Assembly: GCA_964560595.1 (NCBI GenBank)
Contig: CAZLME010000003.1
Location: forward strand, 1-32,594
Direction of reading: 5' to 3'
Origin: an uncultured Actinomycetota bacterium
GTDB lineage: Bacteria; Actinomycetota; Humimicrobiia; Humimicrobiales; Humimicrobiaceae
Length of the DNA: 32,594 bases
The stretch's first letter is position 1. Every line of letters starts with the position of its first letter. The notes under the pieces are model-generated. The model was not told the DNA's origin, searched no databases, and worked only from the letters and a program-made list of their open reading frames with translations. Made by a program: the position numbers and the translations under genes. Shown here one piece after another: positions 12,673 through 22,669 of the stretch.

Positions 12673-12760
12673 GCCCGAGTGGCGGAATTGGTAGACGCAA
12701 CGGACTTAAAATCCGTTGAGGTTTTACCTCGTGCCGGTTCGATTCCGGCCTCGGGCACCA
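12673..12760 (+). tRNA. tRNA-Leu, anticodon TAA, CCA encoded
   Basis: I folded the cloverleaf by hand. The acceptor is GCCCGAG/CTCGGGC. The anticodon stem is ACGGA/TCCGT with loop CTTAAAA. It has a long variable arm and the T arm GCCGG-TTCGATT-CCGGC, and it ends in CCA. Confidence 0.9.
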
Positions 12761-13070: not shown

Positions 13071-13679
13071 ATGTGTGCAAAGGAAAGAATCAGAGATAAG
13101 GATTCAACAGTACAAAAAATCTTAAGTGCAGCAGAAGAGGTCTTTGCTAAATATGGATTCAATGCATCATCTATCAAAATGATCTCGGATAAATCGGGTA
13201 TATCGGATGGATTAATTTTATATCACTATAAAACAAAGAAGAATCTTTATAAATCTGTAAGGGAAAAAACTGCTAAGCGTTATGGTGATGTATTAGAGGC
13301 AAATCTTAAAATGATTGGTTTACCCAAAAAAATGATTCTTCAGAGTATTGAGACAGTATTTAAATTTTGTAAGAATGACAAAACATACAGTAGGATATCT
13401 TTATGGTCATACCTTGAAGGTGAAAATGATATTGTTGAAAACGAGGCTAAGATTACAGGTAAAATAGTTGAAATCGGGAAGTGGCTTCAGAAACAGCGTA
13501 TCCTGAAAAAAAATGTAGAATTAATTGTACTATTGACCATTCTTATTGGCTCGATACATTTTTGGCTGAGATACAGGAAGCAATATATAAAAATGCTTAA
13601 TATGGGTAAAACAATTGACGAGTTAGACAAAATATTTATAGAACAAATCTATGAAATAATATCAAAGGAGATCTTGTGA
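13071..13679 (+). CDS. TetR/AcrR family transcriptional regulator
   Basis: 202 aa. The N-terminal HTH region reads ILSAAEEVFAKYGFNASSIKMISDKSGISDGLILYHYKTKKNLY. Confidence 0.85.
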   Translation: MCAKERIRDKDSTVQKILSAAEEVFAKYGFNASSIKMISDKSGISDGLILYHYKTKKNLYKSVREKTAKRYGDVLEANLKMIGLPKKMILQSIETVFKFCKNDKTYSRISLWSYLEGENDIVENEAKITGKIVEIGKWLQKQRILKKNVELIVLLTILIGSIHFWLRYRKQYIKMLNMGKTIDELDKIFIEQIYEIISKEIL

Positions 13680-13680
13680 T

Positions 13681-14580
13681 ATGAAGAATAATAAGTTTAT
13701 CTATAGCGAACAGGATATTGATAAAAATATTTCAGATACAGCAGTATTTGTGACCTATTTTAGGGCTTGTTCAAACAAAGAAAGGAAACTTAAAGGGCCT
13801 GACTATCTTGCAAAAGAATTTCATACTGGTTCCGCAAGACTGAAATTAAAATTATCACCTATTTTATTACCACTATTAAAGAAATATATACCTGGTACTT
13901 ATGAGTGGGTTGTTTCCAGGACTTTTCTTTTTGATGAAATATTTAAGAATGCACTTGAAGAGAATTTTAATCAGATAATCATTTTGGGTGCAGGATTTGA
14001 TTCGCGCCCTTACCGTTTTATAGATTATATAAAAAATACCAGAATATTTGAGGTGGATGTAGCGCCAACTCAGGAAACAAAGATAAAAATATTAAAGGAT
14101 AAAAAAATAAATATACCTGATGAAATGCAATTTGTTGCTATTAATTTTAATAAAGATAATCTTGCCGAAAGGTTACTCCAATCGGGATTTCAAGTAGGTA
14201 AAAGAAACCTTTTCGTATGGGAAGGTGTAACAGAATATCTTACAGATGATGCCGTTGATTCAACTTTAACTTTTATAAAGAATAACTCAATGAGAAAAAG
14301 CCTTATTGCTTTTACTTATATTTACAAAGAAGCCATTGAAGGCAATTATAATTATTATGGATCAAAAGAAATAGTTAATTTAGTATCGAAATATAAAGAA
14401 CCATACCATTTTGGAATACCTGAAGGAGAGATAAATAAATTTTTGAAAAAGTGGGGATTTAATATTGTAAAAAATTATACTCCAAATGAGTTGGAAAAAC
14501 TCTATCTTACCCTTGGAAGTGGTAGGTCCTTTGGCAAGATTAGCGGTCATCAATGTGCAGTTATTGTTGAGGTATTATGA
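13681..14580 (+). CDS. class I SAM-dependent methyltransferase, leucine-carboxyl-methyltransferase (LCM/TIGR00027-like) family
   Basis: 299 aa. It has IIILGAGFDSRPYRF (SAM motif I of the LCM family), the downstream FEVD and WEGVTEYL. It starts 1 nt after the TetR stop. Confidence 0.78.
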   Translation: MKNNKFIYSEQDIDKNISDTAVFVTYFRACSNKERKLKGPDYLAKEFHTGSARLKLKLSPILLPLLKKYIPGTYEWVVSRTFLFDEIFKNALEENFNQIIILGAGFDSRPYRFIDYIKNTRIFEVDVAPTQETKIKILKDKKINIPDEMQFVAINFNKDNLAERLLQSGFQVGKRNLFVWEGVTEYLTDDAVDSTLTFIKNNSMRKSLIAFTYIYKEAIEGNYNYYGSKEIVNLVSKYKEPYHFGIPEGEINKFLKKWGFNIVKNYTPNELEKLYLTLGSGRSFGKISGHQCAVIVEVL

Positions 14581-14716
14581 TTTATAATGAACAGAAATCC
14601 CGTTAAGAAAAATGCTGATGTATTTAGCTGATAATAAATATAGCTTTAAATTTATTTTTAAAGGCTGTGAAAGATGATAAGAAAATTGTGGCCTATTCTC
14701 AGCCTTTTGAGATAAA

Positions 14717-14776
14717 CTTATAAATCAATTTTAATCTTTATTTTAAAAGTTCTAAAATTGTCCAATACGGGGAGCC
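14717..14776. repeat. possible third, degenerate and gapped copy of the 70-bp repeat
   Basis: It ends in the same GGGGAGCC as copy A and is preceded by TTTTAAAAGTTCTAAAATTG, which resembles AAAAATTGGTTCGAAATTTC. The alignment needs several gaps. Confidence 0.3.
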
Positions 14777-14858
14777 GAATTAATTATAAAGTTTATCTAT
14801 TTTAATAATTTATTCTATAATTTTGTTTGAAATTTAAGAGATTAGGCTATAAAAATTA

Positions 14859-14928
14859 ATTATCAAATTCCTTAAGTTTTAGTAATTCTTTTATAATTTG
14901 GTTTGATGTTTCAAGACTTAGGGGCACC
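14859..14928. repeat. 70-bp direct repeat, copy C
   Basis: See copy A. On the minus strand both copies encode a similar peptide tail: ..SNQFFKELLKFKEFDN in A and ..SNQIIKELLKLKEFDN-stop in C. Confidence 0.75.
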
Positions 14929-15086
14929 ACTTCTGAATCATATTCATTACATGGGGCTTAAAAACTGGGTTCTTCACCAATAAACGGGGGTTTTACATCA
15001 ATTAAAATTTGACAAAAATGATTTATTCTAGTATTTTAAGTTTTACATAATAAAACTATATTTCATTATTTGAAACTTTTAAAATG

Positions 15087-15139: not shown

Positions 15140-16264
15140 ATGCTAGAAGAAGACACAACTGTTTCAAGGAGTAACGGGACGGTAACTATAACTGCCGTCA
15201 ACAAGTTTCAGATTGGACGACCTAGTCAGACTATCGAGCTTGCGGCCAAAGATTTAGAAGCACTCGGCGAAAAGGACTTGACCAGAATCCATGTTAAAGA
15301 CGCAACTGGCAAGGAACTGCTCTGCCAGGCAGTGGACACCGATGGGGACTATACTCAGGACCAATTGATATTCCAGGCCGACTTTACTGCCGGACAAACC
15401 CAGATCTTCACAGCCACTGTAGGTGACAAGCGGGTGTATGCCAAGGACCAGTTCAGAGCCTATGGCCGCTTTGTACGGGAGAGGTGTGACGACTTCTGCT
15501 GGGAGAATGATCGCATTGCCTTTCGGATATACGGAAAGACCCTGGAGACCTGTGTCCTATATCCGTTAACCAGTAGTACAGTGGATATATGGTCCAAGCG
15601 AACGTCCCGCATGGTCATCAATGACTGGTATATGGTGGATAACTATCATGGTGATACAGGAGAAGGCGGGGATTTCTACTCGGCCGGGCTAAGCCGTGGG
15701 TGTGGCGGTAATGGTCTATGGGCGGCAGACAGACTCTGGGTCTCTAAGAATTTTGTGAATTCCCGTCCCCTGACTAACGGGCCGATCCGCGTAATGTTTG
15801 AGTTGATCTATGAGCTGTTCGAAGTTAATGGGGTAATGGTTTCTGAGATCAAGCGGATTTCTATGGATGCCGGGCAGAACTTGTGCCACTATCAAAGCAT
15901 TTACAAATCTGAAAAGCAAATGGACTTGATTACTGGTGTTGGACTAAAGAAGGTCACAGGAGAGCATTCGGATGTAAACACAGAGCGGGGATGGCTGGCT
16001 AAGTGGGAGCCCATGGAGATGAATGCCGGCGAGCAGGGTCTAGCGGCTATAGTGGATCCTAATCTCTTTGAGAAACAGACAGAAGACCAGTACAACCTTC
16101 TCATGCTGGCCCGGGTACCAGCCGATAACATTGCGTCATATTGGGCTGGTTTCTGCTGGGACAGGAGTGGCCAATTTGCAGATTTCGAGGCATGGAAGAC
16201 ATATATAGATCAGTTCGCCCAGGGGTTACTCTCGCCGATCGAAGTCAGTGTGTCGGTCCAGTGA
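15140..16264 (+). CDS. compositionally foreign protein, tentatively DUF4861-like (family seen in pectin/uronate utilisation loci); no signal peptide
   Basis: This is a 374-aa uninterrupted ORF with codon usage unlike its neighbours (CTG, GCC, GAC, CGG). The family call rests on my memory of a WENDRIAFRIYG-type motif and the overall length. It needs an HMM check. Confidence 0.55.
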   Translation: MLEEDTTVSRSNGTVTITAVNKFQIGRPSQTIELAAKDLEALGEKDLTRIHVKDATGKELLCQAVDTDGDYTQDQLIFQADFTAGQTQIFTATVGDKRVYAKDQFRAYGRFVRERCDDFCWENDRIAFRIYGKTLETCVLYPLTSSTVDIWSKRTSRMVINDWYMVDNYHGDTGEGGDFYSAGLSRGCGGNGLWAADRLWVSKNFVNSRPLTNGPIRVMFELIYELFEVNGVMVSEIKRISMDAGQNLCHYQSIYKSEKQMDLITGVGLKKVTGEHSDVNTERGWLAKWEPMEMNAGEQGLAAIVDPNLFEKQTEDQYNLLMLARVPADNIASYWAGFCWDRSGQFADFEAWKTYIDQFAQGLLSPIEVSVSVQ

Positions 16265-16380: not shown

Positions 16381-16935
16381 TTAATGATTATTTTTAACCG
16401 GTTTTTTAGTTGAAGAAGGTTTTTCTTTTGTCCTGGTCTTTGCAGTTTCTTTTGTTTTAGCCTTTTTAACCGATTTTTGTTTGGAGACTTTAGCACTTTT
16501 TTTAGCAGCAGCATGTGTTTTCTTATTATCGGAAATCTTTTTATTTTTATTTTCACTTATAGTTTCTTTTTTAAAGGGAATATCTTTTTTAACTTTAATT
16601 TTCTCTTTTACTTCAGCTGTTTTTAAAGGTTTATTTTCTTTTTTTGCTGAAGTGATTTTTTCCAGAATCTTTATGGTATTATCCAGATCCTCCAGATATT
16701 TAGTATTATCTGAAGAGCTGAAAGGTTTGTTACCACGATGATATTTAGTATCGGTAAAGGTTAACTTTTTAAAATCGTTTATATCCCTGGTGAAATCCGA
16801 AGGAAGCATTTTTAAAAGGTTCATGGTGCTGGCATGCCAGGTCTTAAATCTAAAGTCTTTGCTGTTTAAATTCCTTAAGGGTCCGGCTTCTTTTAGCTTT
16901 TTATTAATTTTTTCTGATAATTCTTTGTCCATCAT
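16381..16935 (-). CDS. hypothetical protein with about 100-aa N-terminal domain and Lys-rich low-complexity tail
   Basis: 184 aa. The tail reads KKTHAAAKKSAKVSKQKSVKKAKTKETAKTRTKEKPSSTKKPVKNNH (histone-H1-like composition). I recognised no family for the N-terminal part. Confidence 0.55.
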   Translation of the reverse strand: MMDKELSEKINKKLKEAGPLRNLNSKDFRFKTWHASTMNLLKMLPSDFTRDINDFKKLTFTDTKYHRGNKPFSSSDNTKYLEDLDNTIKILEKITSAKKENKPLKTAEVKEKIKVKKDIPFKKETISENKNKKISDNKKTHAAAKKSAKVSKQKSVKKAKTKETAKTRTKEKPSSTKKPVKNNH

Positions 16936-17668: not shown

Positions 17669-18235
17669 TTATATATATTTTTTAATCAATTTTATAATTT
17701 CAGGAATCTTTTTTTCTATTACATCTGATAATTCCATAGAAAATGTAATGGGTTTAACTGATTTATTATTATCACCGATATTTACACCGATAAGAAATCC
17801 ATCAATTTTCATATTATGCGTCAATCTAAATAACTTTAATACGTCTATAAGTTCAGTCTGGTGAAATGAAATAAAGTCCCTATCCCTGTGTCCGGAGTCG
17901 ATTATATCGTAAAGGTCATTTAAAGGTATGATGTAAATGCCGCCTTTTACGGGAATATTTTTTTTATTTTCAGTATTGCGGGTATTGAAATTTATATTGT
18001 GACAAGAATCATATGATATTTTCAGGGCATCTATAATTATGAATCTGCAATTTTTATAGGTTTCGAAAATCGGCAGTAATCTAAAACCCGCGGTCGAGCC
18101 ATCTATCAGTAAAATACTCCGGGGGAGCTTTTCTTCTTTGAGTTTCTTTATTATGTGAATTCCTATACCTTCGTCCCCGAGCAGAATATTTCCCACGCCG
18201 AGTATAATGGTATTTATGTTATTTGAATCTCCCAC
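17669..18235 (-). CDS. [NiFe] hydrogenase maturation endopeptidase (HyaD/HybD/HoxM family)
   Basis: 188 aa with a GTG start. The N-terminus ILGVGNILLGDEGIGIHIIKKL is typical of the family. It is the last gene of the hydrogenase unit, 5 nt after the metF stop. Confidence 0.8.
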   Translation of the reverse strand: MGDSNNINTIILGVGNILLGDEGIGIHIIKKLKEEKLPRSILLIDGSTAGFRLLPIFETYKNCRFIIIDALKISYDSCHNINFNTRNTENKKNIPVKGGIYIIPLNDLYDIIDSGHRDRDFISFHQTELIDVLKLFRLTHNMKIDGFLIGVNIGDNNKSVKPITFSMELSDVIEKKIPEIIKLIKKYI

Positions 18236-18240
18236 TGTAT

Positions 18241-19152
18241 CTATTTTAAATCTTTAACCACGGCAGGTATATGCTTCTCCCATCCGAGAGCCTGGATGTG
18301 GACCCCGGCACAATATGGTTTGACTTCATCTATCAGGTTGGAAGCAATCTCGATGCACATTGAAACCTTATCTTCTGTCGCTTCCATTTTTTTTACAATG
18401 GGCTCCGGTACAAATACGCCAGGTACAAATTTATTCATATAATTTGCCATCTTTTCGGATTTTAAAAGAATTATACCGGCGAGTATAGGAATATCGATAT
18501 GCTCCTTACGAATCCTTTCCATAAACCTTTTAAAAACTTCCGCATCAAATATGGCCTGAGTCTGGAAGAATTGGGCACCCTGACTTATTTTTTTCTTCAT
18601 TTTTATAATCTGAAGCTCATAAGATGCCTCTGTATCGGCACCGGGATTCACTACGGCACCCTTAAAGAAAGAAGGTTTCTGGGTCAGGTCATTACCTGCC
18701 AGGTCTTTTCCCTCTTCCAGGGTTTTTATTGCCCATAACAGCTGAACCGAATCAAGGTCAAACACAGGCTCAGCCTGCGGGTGGTCACCGGTAGTGGTAT
18801 AGTCACCGGTAAGAGCAAGGACATTTCTTATACCCATAACATAAGCGCTTATCAGGTCAGATTGAAGGGCAAGCCTATTTCTATCCCTGCAGGTAACCTG
18901 GAATATGGGATCGAGTCCCCATTCCTTTAAAAAATGGCAGGTTGCAAGCGAGCCAAGACGCATTACCGAACTCTGAAGGTCTGTTACATTTATTCCGTCC
19001 GCAACATCTCTTAAGATTTCTGCCGCTTCTTTAATCTCTTCGATATCGGCCCCTTTGGGAGGGCCCAACTCGGAGGTTACCGCAAACTTTCCACTTTTTA
19101 ACGCTTTTTCAAATTTCGATTCTTCCACTGTTGTTTTTTCTGATTCTTCCAT
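18241..19152 (-). CDS. metF: methylenetetrahydrofolate reductase, MetF subunit (acetogen MetVF type)
   Basis: I chose the ATG at 19152 (MEESEK...), 2 nt after the metV stop. It is a TIM-barrel MTHFR with motifs FAVTSELGPPKG, RDRNRLALQSDL, ALTGD and FFQTQAIFD. Confidence 0.85.
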   Translation of the reverse strand: MEESEKTTVEESKFEKALKSGKFAVTSELGPPKGADIEEIKEAAEILRDVADGINVTDLQSSVMRLGSLATCHFLKEWGLDPIFQVTCRDRNRLALQSDLISAYVMGIRNVLALTGDYTTTGDHPQAEPVFDLDSVQLLWAIKTLEEGKDLAGNDLTQKPSFFKGAVVNPGADTEASYELQIIKMKKKISQGAQFFQTQAIFDAEVFKRFMERIRKEHIDIPILAGIILLKSEKMANYMNKFVPGVFVPEPIVKKMEATEDKVSMCIEIASNLIDEVKPYCAGVHIQALGWEKHIPAVVKDLK

Positions 19153-19154
19153 GT

Positions 19155-19832
19155 TTACACCATCTCCTCTTCGTCCAGCGCCCATAATCTTGTTTTTCTT
19201 AATTCTGCCGAAGGTAATATTTTTGAATAATCCCGTGGCGGTATGAATTTATTTAATATATCCAGCCTGCCAATTTTTTTTAGGCTGTTATAAATAAGTT
19301 CCCACCCGCAGTCCCTTTCCGGGTCTGTTTCGCATTTCCCGTTACTCTGTCCTGCACATGCGCCATTTTCAAGTTTTTTGGGACAGGCAGAATACGGGCA
19401 TATACCGCCTGTATAATCCAGTATGCAGTCACCGCATGTATCGCATCTTTCGGTGCCCTGCCACATGCCTGTTATACCCCCAAAGGTTATGGTATTTAAA
19501 GCCGGATGGCAGATTTTATTTAAGACTGCTGCTGCTGCCTGGACGCCCAGTCCGCACGAAAATACAAGTGCAGAATCTGCATTTTTTATTTCATTGAGTC
19601 TCGGTTTTATGCGGGAACGGATTAATGCTTTCTGGCAGAGAAAATCTATTTCAAGTATACCGGTTACGTTTTTTCCTTCTTTTTCAAGCTTATCTTTCAT
19701 ATCAGTCAGCACTTCTTTTCCACCGGTTTTAGCACCTTCGGGACATCCGCAGCAGCCGATAATAAAAATATTTTTCTCATCTTTTAGTTTTAATAGTATT
19801 TCTTCTACAGGTTTAAATTCAGTTAATATCAT
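19155..19832 (-). CDS. metV: MetV, Cys-rich MTHFR-associated subunit (MTHFR_C domain)
   Basis: 225 aa. It has IIGCCGCPEGAKTGG, CGLGVQ and the C-terminal cluster CDTCGDCILDYTGGICPYSACPKKLENGACAGQSNGKCE....RDCGW, characteristic of MetV. Confidence 0.75.
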   Translation of the reverse strand: MILTEFKPVEEILLKLKDEKNIFIIGCCGCPEGAKTGGKEVLTDMKDKLEKEGKNVTGILEIDFLCQKALIRSRIKPRLNEIKNADSALVFSCGLGVQAAAAVLNKICHPALNTITFGGITGMWQGTERCDTCGDCILDYTGGICPYSACPKKLENGACAGQSNGKCETDPERDCGWELIYNSLKKIGRLDILNKFIPPRDYSKILPSAELRKTRLWALDEEEMV

Positions 19833-19859
19833 TAGACCTCCTAAAAAAATTTAAAGCTT

Positions 19860-21410
19860 TTAGATTACTTTATATTTACCAATCAGGTCCCCATCTGGCG
19901 TTATCAGGTGAACCGCACAGGCGGTACAGGGATCAAAACTTCTTATAACCCTTAAAATTTCAATAGGGCTCTCGCTTTCTTTAATTTTAAGGCCGATCAG
20001 CGCCTGTTCATACGGACCCGGCTGCCCATTTTTATCTTTTGGTGATGCATTCCAGGCAGTGGGGGTGATTATCTGGTAATTTGATATTCTGCCTTCTTCT
20101 ACATTTAACCAGTGCCCCAGCGCGCCTCTCGGTGCAGCACACAAACCCACTCCCTTTCCATCGGCGGGAGGGTCGTACTCAACTGCTGCAGGTTCTCCTG
20201 CTTTTAACTGCATAGCCCATTTTAAGAGCTGGCAGGCTATTATGTCAGCAGATAGCACTCTGGCAAGATGCCTTCCTGCCACTGAGTAAAAATTGGAAAT
20301 ATTTCCTCCAATTTCTGATAGGGCATCATCAACAATTTTTTTAACTTCCGGATCTTTTTTACCAAGATAAGTCGAAAGAATATTTGCAACAGGGCCAACC
20401 TCAAATACTTTACCGCTGTATCTCGGAGATTTAATCCAGCTGTATCCTTTTTCCTTATCAGATACTGGCTCGGTTTTACCGTTACCCGGATACAGGGGCC
20501 CGGAATCCTTATACCAGCTGTGGGTTACGTCCTCAGTTATGTTGTTGATATCAAATTCACTGTAATTATCAATATCGCTTATAAGCCCACCTTTAAAAAG
20601 CATATCGTTATAGCTACCATTGGATTTAGTTTTGTATGAATCATATGCCAGTAAGTTCAGGCAGCCTTTCCCGATTTCAAGATACTCACTGTATGTTTTA
20701 GCTACAGCTATAACATCAGGTAAATAATAATTTTTAATAAAATCTTTAATTTCTTCAAGTCTCCATATAAATTCAGTTATTTTATCAGCGGTTAGTTTTC
20801 CGGATACACCGCCGGCTACAATGGCGGCGTCATGGGGCCACTTTCCGCCAAAAAGGGTAGCGGCCTGCTGGGTTTTCTTGTAAATATCAAGAGCCCTGAG
20901 ATAATGACTCACTACCGCGCAGGTGGTTTCTTTATCAAACTTATAATCTATATCATCCCGGGGTAAAAATGGTGTGGAATATCCCTGCCCGAGAAAATAT
21001 TTTAATGTATTTAAATTCTTGTCTTGGCCGCTGTATTCGATAACCCTGGCAGGGTCAACATAATCCAGCCCGCTTAAAATATAAAAATGTAAAATATGGT
21101 CCGCAATGGTCCTGGTTCCAAGTATCAGATTCCTTAATAAAATCCCATTTTCAGGGATTTTATCGGAAAGGCCGGCATAATCTTCCACTGCAGTAACCGA
21201 GGCTATGGCGTGCGGTTCCGGGCATACTCCGCAAATTCTCTGCGTCAGCAGAACCGCATCCCGGGGATCTCTTCCTTTTAATATAACTTCTATCCCCCTG
21301 AACATGGTTCCGCTGATATTGGCATCTTTTATCTCGCCATTATCCACCATTACTTCCACTTTCAGGTGGCCTTCTATTCTGGTTATGGGGTGTATTACAA
21401 TTTTTTTCAA
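19860..21410 (-). CDS. [NiFe] hydrogenase large subunit
   Basis: 516 aa. The TTG start follows the SD GGAAGGTG. The N-terminal Ni-binding motif is PITRIEGH...QRICGVCPEPH. The C-terminal motif is ITPTAWNASP...RSFDPCTACAVH, followed by a 15-aa extension (LITPDGDLIGKYKVI) of the kind removed by the endopeptidase. Confidence 0.93.
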   Translation of the reverse strand: MKKIVIHPITRIEGHLKVEVMVDNGEIKDANISGTMFRGIEVILKGRDPRDAVLLTQRICGVCPEPHAIASVTAVEDYAGLSDKIPENGILLRNLILGTRTIADHILHFYILSGLDYVDPARVIEYSGQDKNLNTLKYFLGQGYSTPFLPRDDIDYKFDKETTCAVVSHYLRALDIYKKTQQAATLFGGKWPHDAAIVAGGVSGKLTADKITEFIWRLEEIKDFIKNYYLPDVIAVAKTYSEYLEIGKGCLNLLAYDSYKTKSNGSYNDMLFKGGLISDIDNYSEFDINNITEDVTHSWYKDSGPLYPGNGKTEPVSDKEKGYSWIKSPRYSGKVFEVGPVANILSTYLGKKDPEVKKIVDDALSEIGGNISNFYSVAGRHLARVLSADIIACQLLKWAMQLKAGEPAAVEYDPPADGKGVGLCAAPRGALGHWLNVEEGRISNYQIITPTAWNASPKDKNGQPGPYEQALIGLKIKESESPIEILRVIRSFDPCTACAVHLITPDGDLIGKYKVI

Positions 21411-21430
21411 AATTTCACCTTCCTAAATAA

Positions 21431-22321
21431 TTATTTATTTTGGATTTTAGCCTTCTTTTCATTTACCGGTACTTCAACATCTATAATTCTTTCACAGAAA
21501 TCTCCCAGAAGATCGGGATATTCCGGAGATGTGCAGCCGTTACACGGAGCTCCGCTTCCGATTACCCAGTTTGTTCTGCCGTTCCATTGCCTTGTGGAGC
21601 AATCGGCATAAGTTATAGGGCCTTTGCATCCCAGTTCGTAAAGACAGCCCTCGTCCCCCGGTTTTTTGGCAAATTTACCTTCATCAAAGTAAGCCCTGTT
21701 CGGACAATTCTCGTGAATCAATTTTCCGTAATATATCTTTGGTCTTTTAAAATCATCCAGCTCCAGATTTTCCAGACCTTTTGTAAGGATTTCTTCAATA
21801 GTGCCGAATAGCCAGTCCGGATGGGGAGGGCAGCCCGGAATATTTACAAGCGGGGTTTTAATATCATTGGCCAAAAAAATTTCTCCCACGCTCTTTGCTC
21901 CGGTTGGATTGGGATTTGCGGCAGCAATCCCTCCAAATGCTGCACAGGTTCCAAGAGCTATTACGAGCATTGCATTTGGTGCAAGCTTAAGCGCTTCTTC
22001 CAGTATGGTGTATTTTTTACCGTCCTTTTCTCCTGTAATGCAATAAATTCCATTATTGCCGGTCGGTATGGCTCCATCTATAATTAAAACATAACCCTTT
22101 TTATCAGCAGATTTTTCAAGTATTTCCATGGCAAGATTTCCGCTTGCAGTCATGATATTGGGATGAAATATAAATTCGAGCTTAAATCCCGGGATTATAT
22201 CCTGGAGCAGTACATTCTTAATTGAAGGATATTCGGAGCAGATTGTAGAAGTTATGCAACCGGTACAATTTTGTCCCTGAATATTAATAACGGGTATTGC
22301 AGGACTTTTTTTGTCATTCAT
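21431..22321 (-). CDS. [NiFe] hydrogenase small subunit, no Tat signal and no C-terminal anchor
   Basis: 296 aa. Proximal-cluster ligands are NCTGC, GTCAAFGG and GCPP. The distal and medial cluster region is HENCPNR...CLYELGCKGPITYADCSTRQWN...GAPCNGCTSPEYPD, closely resembling periplasmic Desulfovibrio-type small subunits. Only 18 residues precede the first CxxC. Confidence 0.9.
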   Translation of the reverse strand: MNDKKSPAIPVINIQGQNCTGCITSTICSEYPSIKNVLLQDIIPGFKLEFIFHPNIMTASGNLAMEILEKSADKKGYVLIIDGAIPTGNNGIYCITGEKDGKKYTILEEALKLAPNAMLVIALGTCAAFGGIAAANPNPTGAKSVGEIFLANDIKTPLVNIPGCPPHPDWLFGTIEEILTKGLENLELDDFKRPKIYYGKLIHENCPNRAYFDEGKFAKKPGDEGCLYELGCKGPITYADCSTRQWNGRTNWVIGSGAPCNGCTSPEYPDLLGDFCERIIDVEVPVNEKKAKIQNK

Positions 22322-22669
22322 ATCAATCTCCTTAAAAAAAGATTTTCTTTTTGTTTTTTAAACAGTGTTGATTTGAGCCTGAGAGGTAATATATTATATA
22401 TGTTATATTTGGAATGATTTGCAGACTTTAATGATTTTATATTTCGCTTATATATAAGTTTAAGCATTAATTATAATATTTGCCAAAGATAATTTGTCTT
22501 ATTTTAAACAAAATAAGATTTATTTTCAATTAAATTAGTTTACAGGATAGAGATATTTTTCATTTATTTTTTTGAGAATATAAATTTTCTAATTTACTGA
22601 TAAAATATACAGCATAAGTCATTAAATCTTTTTTAAAAGAAAACAGAGATTAAATTTATTTTTAAGATC

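What the first reader, a model, noticed from the sequence alone, without database searches (positions are those of the whole stretch)
17669..22321. Five-gene operon embedding MetV/MetF methylene-THF reductase inside a cytoplasmic [NiFe] hydrogenase unit
The minus strand carries five genes in a row: small subunit (22321-21431), large subunit (21410-19860), MetV (19832-19155), MetF (19152-18241) and a HyaD/HybD-type endopeptidase (18235-17669). The gaps between them are only 20, 27, 2 and 5 nt. Recognisable SD sequences precede the first three genes and a weaker one precedes metF. A 411-bp AT-rich region lies upstream and a convergent gene lies downstream, so the block reads as one self-contained transcription unit. 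The hydrogenase-specific protease comes after metF, so metVF sits inside the hydrogenase operon rather than merely next to it.

From established work on acetogens, MetVF-type reductases are genetically linked to HdrABC-MvhD (Moorella type) or to RnfC2 (Acetobacterium woodii), or they stand alone. Their physiological electron donor is still debated. No hdr, mvhD, rnfC or NAD(P)H-binding subunit is present in this block.

My inference is that this is a candidate H2:methylene-THF oxidoreductase. The FeS wire of the hydrogenase small subunit would feed MetV/MetF directly. The reaction would be exergonic (H2 about -414 mV, methylene-/methyl-THF about -200 mV). I am not aware of a biochemically described complex of this composition.
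Basis: partly seen in the sequence, partly recalled or inferred. Interest (0 to 1): 0.8.

Follow-up and report, generated by a model that had tools for sequence, protein, structure and literature searches.

The report
Cytoplasmic [NiFe] hydrogenase wired to MetVF reductase
An uncultured actinobacterium has one operon that joins a cytoplasmic hydrogen-splitting enzyme to the folate reductase of the acetyl-CoA (Wood-Ljungdahl) pathway, and the same pairing recurs across several bacterial phyla, which suggests that hydrogen gas feeds this carbon-fixation step directly, although no one has yet shown this in the laboratory.

Summary
Five minus-strand genes are present: hydS, hydL, metV, metF and a maturation protease. 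The gaps are 20, 27, 2 and 5 nt, and a 411-bp upstream region carries a conserved promoter/palindrome.

The hydrogenase is group-1a-like, but its small subunit has no Tat signal and no membrane anchor. All [NiFe] and FeS ligands are present, along with a C-terminal extension and a dedicated protease. It is therefore catalytic and cytoplasmic, not sensory.

The linkage goes far beyond this window:
- 71 of 72 related loci with enough flanking DNA carry metV next to hydL, at hydL identities of 46-94%.
- These loci come from Actinomycetota, Chloroflexota, Elusimicrobiota and Clostridia.
- They often lie inside acs/fhs/folD clusters.
- Only these five gene families are universally conserved. No Hdr, MvhD, RnfC or NAD(P)H module is.

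The order S-L-V-F-protease is specific to the Humimicrobiia clade.

The best reading is a soluble HydSL-MetVF H2:methylene-THF oxidoreductase, possibly reversible. This is inferred, not demonstrated.

Two metagenome papers already noted the adjacency: 2018 in Ca. Syntrophonatronum, and 2024 in Ca. Bipolaricaulia, which also proposed the same electron-donor idea. I found no biochemistry or structure. I rate it a new variant of known kinds, of moderately high interest.

The parts
22498..22529 (-). Conserved promoter-like element. It has -35 TTGAAA (22529-22524) and -10 TAAAAT (22506-22501). A perfect palindrome CTTATTTT-GTTT-AAAATAAG (22517-22498) overlaps the -10 and is a likely operator. The element lies about 180 nt upstream of hydS.
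   Evidence: The consensus scan scores 10/12. This block is the only long invariant stretch in an alignment of seven otherwise diverged upstream regions. The exact 32-nt pattern is found in 5 related loci. The core occurs once in the window, against 0.14 expected. Its function is inferred.
21431..22321 (-). hydS: [NiFe] hydrogenase small subunit, 296 aa. It has no Tat signal and no C-terminal membrane anchor. Ligands for the proximal 4Fe4S cluster are C19, C22, C126 and C164. The medial cluster has three Cys (C241, C260, C263). The distal 4Fe4S cluster has H203, C206, C226 and C232.
   Evidence: The closest solved structure is the Dm. baculatum [NiFeSe] small subunit 1cc1_S, E 2.3e-69. Ligand conservation was checked in 56 loci. 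Position 253 is Val here but Cys in 36/56 relatives. Only 18 residues precede the CxxC motif, and all relatives are likewise Tat-less. There is no TM-like segment outside the conserved core strand.
19860..21410 (-). hydL: [NiFe] hydrogenase large subunit, 516 aa, TTG start. The L1 motif is RICGVCPEPH (C60, C63). The L2 motif is DPCTACAVH (C495, C498, H501). L2 is followed by a 15-residue C-terminal extension that is the protease substrate.
   Evidence: NF033181, 606.9 bits against a cut-off of 600. PDB matches are to group 1 periplasmic enzymes, E 1e-108 to 1e-100. The metal ligands are invariant in 56 loci and in alignment A1.
19155..19832 (-). metV: FeS/zinc subunit of MetVF-type methylene-THF reductase, 225 aa, with 12 conserved Cys. 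C27, C30 and the eight C-terminal Cys are invariant in 56 loci; C66 is present in 55 and C93 in 51. Four lie in an N-terminal alpha/beta domain (C27, C30, C66, C93). Eight lie in the C-terminal DUF5981 domain (C130, C133, C136, C145, C150, C159, C167, C175). It is the proposed docking and electron-relay partner of HydS.
   Evidence: PF12225, E 6.7e-32. The AF2 model is confident for residues 1-116 only. MetV has no relative of solved structure. Pairwise distances of MetV track those of HydS (r=0.87) and HydL (r=0.80).
18241..19152 (-). metF: flavin-containing catalytic subunit of methylene-THF reductase, 303 aa. An alternative upstream ATG lies at 19185.
   Evidence: PF02219, E 1.5e-41. It aligns to T. 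thermophilus MTHFR 1v93_A, and the E(F/L)xPPK and LAL(R/T)GD motifs align. Relatives align from residues 1-8.
17669..18235 (-). HyaD/HybD-type hydrogenase maturation endopeptidase, 188 aa, GTG start. It is the last gene of the operon in this clade.
   Evidence: TIGR00072, 80.6 bits against a cut-off of 47.45, and PF01750. It is present in 68 of the related loci. Its position after metF is specific to the Actinomycetota clade.

Best explanation
The five genes form one transcription unit that encodes a soluble, cytoplasmic HydSL-MetVF assembly, an H2:methylene-tetrahydrofolate oxidoreductase.

Proposed electron path (inferred):
1. H2 is split at the [NiFe] site of HydL.
2. Electrons pass along the three FeS clusters of HydS: proximal 4Fe4S, a three-Cys medial cluster, and a His-ligated distal 4Fe4S.
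3. They enter the Cys-rich FeS subunit MetV.
4. [quoted passage not shown]

MetV would play the adaptor role it plays towards RnfC2 in the A. woodii type and towards HdrABC-MvhD in the Moorella type. Here the input module is a group-1a-like hydrogenase that has lost its Tat signal and stays in the cytoplasm. The protease matures HydL.

The reaction stays exergonic at the very low H2 pressures of sediments: -13 kJ/mol at 1 Pa H2, where H2 to NAD+ is already endergonic. That gives a rationale for bypassing NADH and ferredoxin. Near such pressures the enzyme could also run backwards.

What is shown: gene content, cofactor ligands, cytoplasmic location, and strongly conserved linkage. What is inferred: the physical complex, the electron path, the direction and the activity.
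For: Identity and cytoplasmic location
- Gene identity and tight spacing are established.
- HydS lacks a Tat signal and an anchor, here and in all relatives.
- All NiFe and FeS ligands, the C-terminal extension of HydL and a dedicated protease are conserved.

Linkage starting from hydL
- 70/72 loci with at least 1.5 kb downstream carry metV, and 49/51 with at least 3.5 kb carry metF.
- One apparent exception, L040, has metV further downstream, giving 71/72.
- hydL identity across these loci ranges from 94% down to 46%.

Linkage starting from MetV
- The next-closest MetV clade (55-57% identity, Chloroflexota/Dehalococcoidia) is 3/3 directly downstream of hydS-hydL.

Taxonomic spread
- Actinomycetota/Humimicrobiaceae, Clostridia, Chloroflexota/Anaerolineae and Elusimicrobiota.
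- Bipolaricaulia and Ca. Syntrophonatronum from the literature.

Conserved content and context
- Only five gene families are universal in the neighbourhoods. The next most frequent occurs in at most 12 loci, so no alternative donor module is conserved.
- Recurrent non-core neighbours are Wood-Ljungdahl genes: FolD, FTHFS, CooC, AcsB/C/D/E, DUF3786 and NuoEF-type formate dehydrogenase modules.

Co-evolution
- MetV distances correlate with HydS (r=0.87) and HydL (r=0.80) almost as well as HydS does with HydL (0.88-0.91). Mantel p=0.001.

Operon signals
- A conserved promoter/operator lies upstream, and there is no intergenic terminator.

Thermodynamics

Independent proposal
- PMC11287216 suggests the same thing.
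Against: - There are no biochemical, transcript or structural data for any member.
- Multimer modelling could not be run, so a HydS-MetV interface has not been examined.
- The mirror-tree correlation partly reflects shared organismal phylogeny.
- MetF co-varies only weakly with HydL (r=0.46).
- Direct H2 use dissipates up to 41 kJ/mol at 1 bar H2 without an obvious coupling site. That is costly for an acetogen.
- This window holds no other Wood-Ljungdahl gene, so pathway context for this particular genome rests on relatives and on the literature about the class.
- Some Chloroflexota loci interleave a histidine kinase and response regulators. That leaves room for a regulatory side to the story.
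Confidence: 0.62

Rival explanations
1. The same HydSL-MetVF complex works physiologically in reverse. Methyl-THF oxidation is coupled directly to H2 evolution during syntrophic acetate oxidation or methyl-group oxidation. A hydrogen-consuming partner keeps H2 at about 1 Pa or lower and so pulls the reaction.
For: At 0.1-1 Pa H2 the H+/H2 couple rises to about -240 to -270 mV. With a high methyl-/methylene-THF ratio the reaction then approaches equilibrium. PMC6295475 proposed H2 production for the metF-linked cytoplasmic hydrogenase of a syntrophic acetate oxidiser. Most members of the wider clade carry the fourth Cys at HydS position 253 (36/56). That gives an all-4Fe4S relay as in the [NiFeSe] enzymes, which from general knowledge are good H2 producers.
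Against: Even at 1 Pa H2 the reductive direction is favoured by -13 kJ/mol under otherwise standard conditions. The window's own HydS has Val at position 253, giving a three-Cys medial cluster. From general knowledge this is the pattern of uptake-biased standard [NiFe] hydrogenases. Many loci sit in acs/fhs/folD clusters of putative acetogens, but that context does not tell direction.
Confidence: 0.15
2. The complex is electron-bifurcating. Two H2 are oxidised. One electron pair reduces methylene-THF (exergonic) and drives reduction of ferredoxin (endergonic), analogous to MvhADG-HdrABC. The energy of this step would then be conserved rather than wasted.
For: It would remove the energetic penalty discussed for MetVF enzymes in PMC8760232. 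The architecture, a cytoplasmic [NiFe] hydrogenase wired to a flavoenzyme that reduces a high-potential acceptor, parallels Mvh-Hdr. Foldseek gives a very weak resemblance between the MetV N-terminal domain and HdrA (5odc_A, rank 16, E 0.011).
Against: No recognised bifurcating module (HdrA, NuoF-type Bfu, EtfAB, NfnB) is conserved in the module. The only flavin is that of MetF, which must deliver a hydride to methylene-THF. Purified MetVF enzymes oxidise reduced ferredoxin without a second acceptor (PMC8760232). The Foldseek hit is not significant, and profile searches find nothing.
Confidence: 0.08
3. The genes are co-regulated but the proteins do not dock. HydSL reduces a diffusible carrier such as ferredoxin, flavodoxin or thioredoxin-like protein, and MetVF then oxidises it. 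The operon reflects only a shared need under H2/CO2 growth.
For: Type II MetVF enzymes accept electrons from reduced ferredoxin in vitro (PMC8760232). Gene order within the module is variable, and a kinase gene can sit between metV and metF.
Against: Linkage is almost obligate over deep divergence and several phyla (71/72). MetV co-varies with HydS as tightly as HydL does. No carrier gene is conserved nearby. From general knowledge, group-1-type heterodimers are not known to reduce ferredoxin. At sediment H2 pressures H2 could not reduce ferredoxin or NAD+.
Confidence: 0.1
4. HydSL is an H2 sensor, like the group 2b regulatory hydrogenases, and controls expression or activity of MetVF rather than supplying electrons.
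For: In many Chloroflexota-type loci a cNMP-binding histidine kinase lies between metV and metF, and two response regulators follow. PMC6295475 mentions regulation as one option.
Against: HydL keeps the C-terminal extension, and a dedicated endopeptidase is co-encoded. From general knowledge, regulatory hydrogenases lack both. Both subunits are most similar to catalytic group 1a/1b enzymes. The Actinomycetota operon has no kinase or regulator. The L1 motif reads CGVC, not the CGIC I recall for sensors; that last point is from memory and was not tested.
Confidence: 0.04

Closest known systems
H2-to-methylene-THF electron transport chain of Sporomusa ovata (Kremp, Roth & Muller 2022, PMC9430772)
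   Same: [quoted passage not shown] It was shown with washed membranes.
   Different: In S. ovata the hydrogenase is periplasmic and bound to cytochrome b. MetVF is tethered to the membrane through HdrCBA-MvhD, and the chain is chemiosmotic. Here the hydrogenase is Tat-less and anchor-less, no Hdr, MvhD or cytochrome gene is conserved, and everything is predicted to be cytoplasmic.
Type IV MTHFR, HdrABC-MvhD-MetVF (Moorella thermoacetica type), and type III, RnfC2-MetVF (Acetobacterium woodii type), as classified in PMC8760232
   Same: A MetV+MetF core is joined to a separate electron-input module that is encoded next to it. MetV is the FeS adaptor.
   Different: The input module is a [NiFe] hydrogenase heterodimer instead of an NADH-oxidising HdrA or RnfC2. 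No NAD(P)H site is present. This arrangement is not among the four types in that classification.
Type II MTHFR, stand-alone MetVF (C. ljungdahlii, T. kivui, E. callanderi)
   Same: The same two reductase subunits with FeS clusters and flavin. The physiological donor of type II enzymes is unresolved.
   Different: Here a specific donor enzyme is co-encoded and co-inherited with the reductase.
Periplasmic group 1a [NiFe]/[NiFeSe] hydrogenases (Desulfomicrobium baculatum 1CC1, D. vulgaris Hys)
   Same: These are the best sequence matches for the small subunit (1cc1_S, 2.3e-69) and strong matches for the large subunit. The cluster ligands are the same, and so is the maturation route via a C-terminal extension and protease. 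A MetVF-adjacent homologue was called group 1a by HydDB in PMC11287216.
   Different: No Tat signal, so no export. Cys rather than Sec in the L2 motif. No cytochrome c3 or b partner. The window's medial cluster has three Cys. The NCBIfam Hys-specific models score below their cut-offs: 284.6 against 470 for the small subunit, and 454.9 against 780 for the large subunit.
Hydrogenases hard-wired to a reductase: MvhADG-HdrABC (group 3c) and the hydrogen-dependent CO2 reductase HDCR of A. woodii (from general knowledge)
   Same: The concept is the same. A cytoplasmic hydrogenase passes electrons through FeS subunits straight to an enzyme of C1 metabolism, without a soluble carrier.
   Different: The hydrogenase lineages are unrelated or distant. 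Group 3c models match only the N-terminal roughly 120 residues of HydL, and HDCR uses an [FeFe] enzyme. The acceptor enzyme also differs.
Earlier genomic notes of the same adjacency: Ca. Bipolaricaulia OTUs (PMC11287216, 2024) and Ca. Syntrophonatronum acetioxidans (PMC6295475, 2018)
   Same: A signal-peptide-less [NiFe] hydrogenase sits next to metF/metVF. The 2024 paper proposes electron supply for MTHF reduction.
   Different: Each is a one-sentence remark on a single MAG. Neither documents the breadth, the near-obligate linkage, the minimal five-gene core or the cofactor conservation, and neither gives experimental data.

Membership tests
[NiFe] hydrogenase, catalytic heterodimer | The large subunit has the N-terminal RxCGxCxxxH motif and the C-terminal DPCxxCxxH motif that bind Ni and Fe. 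| tested here: met
   RICGVCPEPH and DPCTACAVH are present. C60, C63, C495 and C498 are invariant in 56 loci, and H501 is present in 55 of 56. PF00374, E 4e-146.
[NiFe] hydrogenase, catalytic heterodimer | The small subunit has ligands for proximal, medial and distal FeS clusters. | tested here: met
   There are 4 Cys (proximal), 3 Cys (medial) and His+3 Cys (distal), each present in at least 55 of 56 loci (C19 in 55, the rest in 56). The alignment to 1cc1_S supports this.
[NiFe] hydrogenase, catalytic heterodimer | The large subunit has a C-terminal extension that is removed by a dedicated endopeptidase. | tested here: met
   Fifteen residues follow H501. The extension is present across alignment A1. 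A HyaD/HybD-type protease gene is in the operon. Cleavage itself cannot be tested here.
Group 1 (periplasmic/membrane-bound uptake) hydrogenase, subgroup 1a | The small subunit has a twin-arginine (Tat) signal peptide for export. | tested here: not met
   Only 18 residues precede the first cluster motif. There is no RRxF motif, here or in any of about 80 related small subunits.
Group 1 (periplasmic/membrane-bound uptake) hydrogenase, subgroup 1a | A cytochrome (c3 or b-type) or membrane-anchor partner is present. | tested here: not met
   No such gene is in the window or among the conserved neighbours. There is no C-terminal TM helix in HydS.
Group 1 (periplasmic/membrane-bound uptake) hydrogenase, subgroup 1a | Sequence affiliation of both subunits with group 1a (HydDB or a phylogeny). 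| tested here: inconclusive
   The best PDB and NCBIfam matches are 1a/[NiFeSe]-type for the small subunit. For the large subunit, 1a, 1b and 1c score about equally. HydDB was not available. PMC11287216 reports 1a for a MetVF-adjacent enzyme.
MetVF-type methylene-THF reductase | A MetF TIM-barrel flavoprotein (PF02219) with the folate/flavin-site motifs. | tested here: met
   PF02219, E 1.5e-41. In the alignment to 1v93_A, the query's ELGPPKG and LALTGD segments line up with the structure's EFFPPKD and LALRGD.
MetVF-type methylene-THF reductase | A Cys-rich MetV subunit (PF12225/DUF5981) is encoded directly upstream of metF. | tested here: met
   PF12225, E 6.7e-32. The gap to metF is 2 nt. 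Twelve Cys are conserved, ten of them invariant in 56 loci.
MetVF-type methylene-THF reductase | Methylene-THF reductase activity and an identified electron donor. | not testable with these tools
   This needs an enzyme assay.
Type III (RnfC2) or type IV (HdrABC-MvhD) MTHFR | Adjacent rnfC2, or adjacent hdrCBA plus mvhD genes. | tested here: not met
   Both are absent from the window. Neither is among the conserved neighbours of the module.
Regulatory (H2-sensing, group 2b) hydrogenase | The large subunit lacks the C-terminal extension, needs no endopeptidase, and is coupled to a histidine kinase. | tested here: not met
   The extension and the protease are present. There is no kinase in this operon. 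A kinase is present in some Chloroflexota loci only.

The most novel reading that the evidence does not exclude
HydSL-MetVF is an electron-bifurcating (or confurcating) enzyme. It would couple exergonic H2-to-methylene-THF electron flow to ferredoxin reduction. In reverse, it would let syntrophs oxidise methyl-THF to H2. This would be a previously unrecognised energy-coupling site of the Wood-Ljungdahl pathway, used by abundant uncultured subsurface Chloroflexota, Actinomycetota, Elusimicrobiota and Bipolaricaulota.
Probability: 0.1. Interest if true: 0.9.

Novelty: new variant of a known kind. Interest (0 to 1): 0.66.

Why it matters
The physiological electron donor of MetVF-type methylene-THF reductases is a long-standing open problem in acetogen bioenergetics. 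PMC8760232 lists four enzyme types and none uses H2 directly.

A fifth, hydrogenase-coupled type would name the donor for a large set of uncultured Wood-Ljungdahl bacteria in sediments, aquifers and digesters. It would also change their ATP and H2-threshold budgets: the step stays exergonic at 1 Pa H2, where NAD+ reduction is not. A third consequence is a precedent for a group-1 'uptake' hydrogenase being relocated to the cytoplasm and docked onto a metabolic enzyme.

The module is compact, with four structural genes plus a protease. The hypothesis can therefore be tested directly by heterologous expression or by cryo-EM of enrichment material.

Tried and rejected
1. Multimer modelling. The distance between the HydS distal cluster and the MetV clusters therefore could not be examined.

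2. MetV structure.
   - The AF2 model with a 37-sequence alignment is confident only for the N-terminal alpha/beta domain. The Cys-rich C-terminal half is below pLDDT 60.
   - Foldseek against the PDB gave no hit with E<1e-3. HdrA (5odc_A, 7bkb_A) appears at E about 0.01-0.02 among generic Rossmann-like folds.
   - Profile-versus-PDB and Pfam scans of the N-terminal domain found nothing.
   - The idea that the N-terminal domain is MvhD/HdrA-like therefore remains an unsupported lead.

3. Syntrophaceticus schinkii. I suspected that its cytoplasmic [NiFe] hydrogenase (SSCH_370002-6, PMC5113046) was the same module in a cultured organism with transcript data. The supplement shows a smaller enzyme (765- and 1314-nt genes) followed by hydD, hypA and hypB, with no metVF. 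Rejected.

4. Cultured hosts. The top 120 homologues of the window HydL and of the Clostridia HydL are all MAG or metagenome sequences.

5. Riboswitch or known RNA in the 411-bp leader. None was found.

6. Promoter and terminator scans. Counts were not above shuffled controls. Only cross-species conservation singled out one promoter-like site.

7. Literature.
   - PMC7325909, PMC9586279, PMC5736913, PMC10689502, PMC6085454 and PMC9888536 describe only Hdr/MvhD- or RnfC-linked MetVF, or unrelated hydrogenases.
   - Jiao et al. 2021 (ISME J, the paper that named Humimicrobiia) is not held. I could not check whether it already shows this cluster.

8. Two apparent exceptions to the linkage. L040 does have metV, further downstream after the kinase, metF and a response regulator. 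L096 (46% identity) really lacks metVF within 5 kb.

Full report
**Observation**

The minus strand of the window carries five consecutive ORFs at exactly the coordinates given.
- hydS, 22321-21431
- hydL, 21410-19860, TTG start
- metV, 19832-19155
- metF, 19152-18241
- A HyaD/HybD-type endopeptidase, 18235-17669, GTG start

Pfam and NCBIfam confirm each assignment.
- The small subunit hits PF01058+PF14720 and TIGR00391 above its cut-off.
- The large subunit hits PF00374 and NF033181 (606.9 bits, cut-off 600).
- MetV hits PF12225, MetF hits PF02219, and the protease hits TIGR00072.

The sequence itself shows gaps of 20, 27, 2 and 5 nt and Shine-Dalgarno-like motifs before hydS, hydL, metV and metF. 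A 411-bp AT-rich spacer runs to a divergent archease/RtcB pair, and a convergent PEBP-family gene lies 20 nt downstream. The rest of the window is housekeeping. It includes Mfd, PrsA-like, MazG, pyruvate kinase, TrkAH and Ppx, and holds no other Wood-Ljungdahl or hydrogenase gene.

**What kind of hydrogenase**

Both subunits resemble periplasmic group 1 enzymes. The small subunit is closest to the Desulfomicrobium baculatum [NiFeSe] small subunit (1cc1_S, 2.3e-69). The large subunit matches group 1b, 1a and 1c structures at 1e-108 to 1e-100. Group 2a, 1h and 3 enzymes are far weaker matches.

The small subunit begins only 18 residues before its first CxxC. It has no twin-arginine motif and ends without a hydrophobic anchor. 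The enzyme therefore must stay in the cytoplasm.

Nearly all cofactor ligands are invariant across 56 related loci, and the few exceptions are each missing in a single locus.
- HydL: C60, C63, C495, C498 and H501.
- HydS proximal cluster: C19, C22, C126, C164.
- HydS medial cluster: C241, C260, C263.
- HydS distal cluster: H203, C206, C226, C232.

HydL keeps a 15-residue tail after the DPCxxCxxH motif, and a dedicated protease is co-encoded. This is the maturation route of catalytic enzymes, not of H2 sensors.

One detail separates this lineage from its relatives. At HydS position 253 the window has Val, whereas 36 of 56 relatives have the Cys that gives [NiFeSe]-type enzymes an all-4Fe4S relay. 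The window enzyme probably has a 3Fe4S medial cluster.

**Host**

The closest genome records are MAGs of Actinomycetota, one of them named Candidatus Humimicrobiaceae (lineage). [quoted passage not shown] I could not read that paper.

**Conserved linkage**

This is the main result.

- All ten Actinomycetota genome loci (hydL identity 94% down to 66%) have hydS-hydL-metV-metF-protease in the same order. A Clostridia MAG at 51% identity has hydS-hydL-protease-metV-metF.
- Three arbitrarily chosen hits of about 50% identity also carry the set. They are from Chloroflexota-like contigs and lie next to CODH/ACS, FTHFS and FolD genes.
- A metagenome scan returned 80 further loci at 46-83% identity.
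- Over all loci, 70 of 72 with at least 1.5 kb after hydL have metV, and 49 of 51 with at least 3.5 kb have metF.
- One of the two exceptions, L040, has metV further downstream. Only L096, the most distant locus, truly lacks it.
- Elusimicrobia contigs and a 489-kb contig show the same module.
- In the reverse direction, the next-closest MetV proteins (55-57% identity, Chloroflexota/Dehalococcoidia) are 3 of 3 directly downstream of hydS-hydL inside acsB-acsCD-acsE clusters.
- Every related small subunit is Tat-less.

**What else is conserved**

Clustering all neighbouring ORFs shows only five universal families: HydL in 90 loci, HydS in 80, MetV in 69, the protease in 68 and MetF in 62. The next family occurs in 12 loci.

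The recurrent extras are mostly Wood-Ljungdahl or maturation genes: FolD, NuoF/NuoE-like proteins, CooC-type ATPase, DUF3786, FTHFS, and HypD/HypE. Response regulators and a cNMP-binding histidine kinase also recur. No Hdr, MvhD, RnfC or other donor module is conserved.

**Co-evolution and gene order**

- Pairwise distances of MetV follow those of HydS (r=0.87) and HydL (r=0.80) nearly as closely as HydS follows HydL (0.88-0.91).
- MetF follows less well (0.46-0.53). Mantel p=0.001.
- Shared species phylogeny contributes to these values, so they are supportive rather than decisive.
- A neighbour-joining tree shows that the protease-last order is a derived feature of the Actinomycetota clade. 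Elsewhere the protease usually sits between hydL and metV, or is absent from the locus.

**Transcription signals**

Consensus scans are no richer than shuffled sequence and show no intergenic terminator inside the block.

Aligning the upstream spacers of seven Actinomycetota loci reveals an invariant block in otherwise diverged sequence. It coincides with the best promoter-like site, TTGAAA-17-TAAAAT at 22529-22501. It also contains a perfect palindrome, CTTATTTT-GTTT-AAAATAAG, at 22517-22498. The 32-nt pattern recurs in five loci, and its core is unique in the window. This fits a single regulated promoter about 180 nt upstream of hydS. No Rfam family matches the leader.

**Mechanism**

The best-supported reading is a soluble HydSL-MetVF complex. 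H2 is oxidised at HydL. Electrons run through the three HydS clusters into the FeS subunit MetV. MetV has 12 conserved Cys: four in a confidently modelled N-terminal alpha/beta domain and eight in DUF5981. From MetV the electrons reach the MetF flavin, which reduces methylene-THF.

In the established MTHFR classification, MetV already connects MetF to RnfC2 (type III) or to HdrABC-MvhD (type IV). The donor of stand-alone type II enzymes is disputed (PMC8760232). A hydrogenase would be a further input module.

A simple calculation gives -41 kJ/mol at 1 bar H2, -18 kJ/mol at 10 Pa and -13 kJ/mol at 1 Pa. H2-driven NAD+ reduction becomes endergonic below about 100 Pa. Direct wiring is therefore a plausible adaptation to low-H2 sediments. 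It also brings the reaction close enough to equilibrium that reverse operation in syntrophs is conceivable.

The complex, the electron path and the direction are all inferred.

**Rivals**

- Reverse, H2-evolving operation (0.15).
- Electron bifurcation to ferredoxin (0.08). No known bifurcating module is conserved.
- Co-regulation with a diffusible carrier (0.10). Near-obligate linkage, the absence of any conserved carrier gene and thermodynamics all argue against it.
- An H2 sensor (0.04). The C-terminal extension, the protease and the catalytic-type affiliation contradict it, although kinase and regulator genes in Chloroflexota loci deserve attention.

**Relation to the literature**

Two metagenome papers mention the adjacency.
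- PMC6295475 (2018) describes a signal-peptide-less [NiFe] hydrogenase whose genes 'surround' metF in Ca. Syntrophonatronum acetioxidans. It suggests regulation or H2 production.
- PMC11287216 (2024) states that a group 1a hydrogenase (HysAB) lies adjacent to MetVF in Ca. [quoted passage not shown]

Sporomusa ovata membranes catalyse H2-dependent methylene-THF reduction. That system uses a periplasmic cytochrome-b hydrogenase and HdrCBA-MvhD-MetVF (PMC9430772).

Ten full-text searches found no purification, assay or structure of a HydSL-MetVF enzyme. I also found no survey of its distribution. The library is incomplete, and the key Humimicrobiia paper was not readable.

**Verdict**

It passes every genomic test available here but remains unproven. 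The idea has been voiced briefly before, so this is not categorically new. I class it as a new variant of two known kinds: a MetVF reductase with a new donor module, and a group-1a-like hydrogenase relocated to the cytoplasm. The new information from this analysis is the near-obligate linkage over several phyla, the minimal five-gene core, and the cofactor conservation. Interest is 0.66.

Noticed in passing
L012:9733-10842, L015:9695-10834, L040:3472-5328, L099:9628-11511 (and L013, L016, L022, L036, L063, L065): In many Chloroflexota-type loci a cNMP-binding histidine kinase gene sits between metV and metF (in L040 and L099 directly after the hydrogenase genes and before metF), and one or two response-regulator genes follow metF. 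This matches the 'phoBR flanking metF_1' remark for the single-cell genome DscP3 in PMC5736913. It suggests that this module is under two-component control in that phylum.
   Followed up: partly
window 22575-22608 (minus strand): This is a second conserved block in the hydS upstream spacer (ATATTTTATCAGTAAATT.GAAAATTTATATTCT). It is nearly invariant in seven Actinomycetota loci. It may be the divergent archease/RtcB promoter or a second operator.
   Followed up: no
HydS position 253 (window about 21563-21565); alignment of 56 loci: The residue that decides between a 3Fe4S and a 4Fe4S medial cluster is Val in the Actinomycetota clade but Cys in 36/56 relatives. The relay chemistry therefore differs within the MetVF-linked hydrogenase clade.
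   Followed up: partly
L099:6401-7087 and 13399-14953; L021:8017-9403; L067:2068-3404; L072:621-2264: Some loci carry extra or rearranged reductase genes. In L099 metV lies upstream of hydS and a second metV-metF pair follows. L021 and L067 have tandem metV copies. L072 has a single 547-aa ORF that covers both MetV and MetF, an apparent fusion.
   Followed up: no
L096:45-2990: This is the most distant sampled member (46% identity). It is a Tat-less hydS-hydL-protease set with no metVF within 5 kb. A TrkA-type channel and two acyl-CoA dehydrogenase genes follow it. It may mark the edge of the MetVF-linked clade.
   Followed up: partly
window 16381-16935 (minus strand): A 184-aa ORF with a very Lys-rich C-terminal half and no Pfam hit. 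It is nevertheless conserved next to the operon in related Actinomycetota loci, at 54-98% identity over the aligned part.
   Followed up: no
window 15140-16264: A DUF4861 gene lies in a stretch of raised G+C (0.41-0.49, against about 0.29 in its flanks). It is 82% identical in L002, where it is on the opposite strand to the hydrogenase operon, as in the window. This is possibly a laterally acquired glycan-related gene.
   Followed up: no
window 12673-12757 (+): This is the only Rfam hit in the window, a tRNA gene (63.4 bits), just after the Ppx/GppA gene.
   Followed up: no
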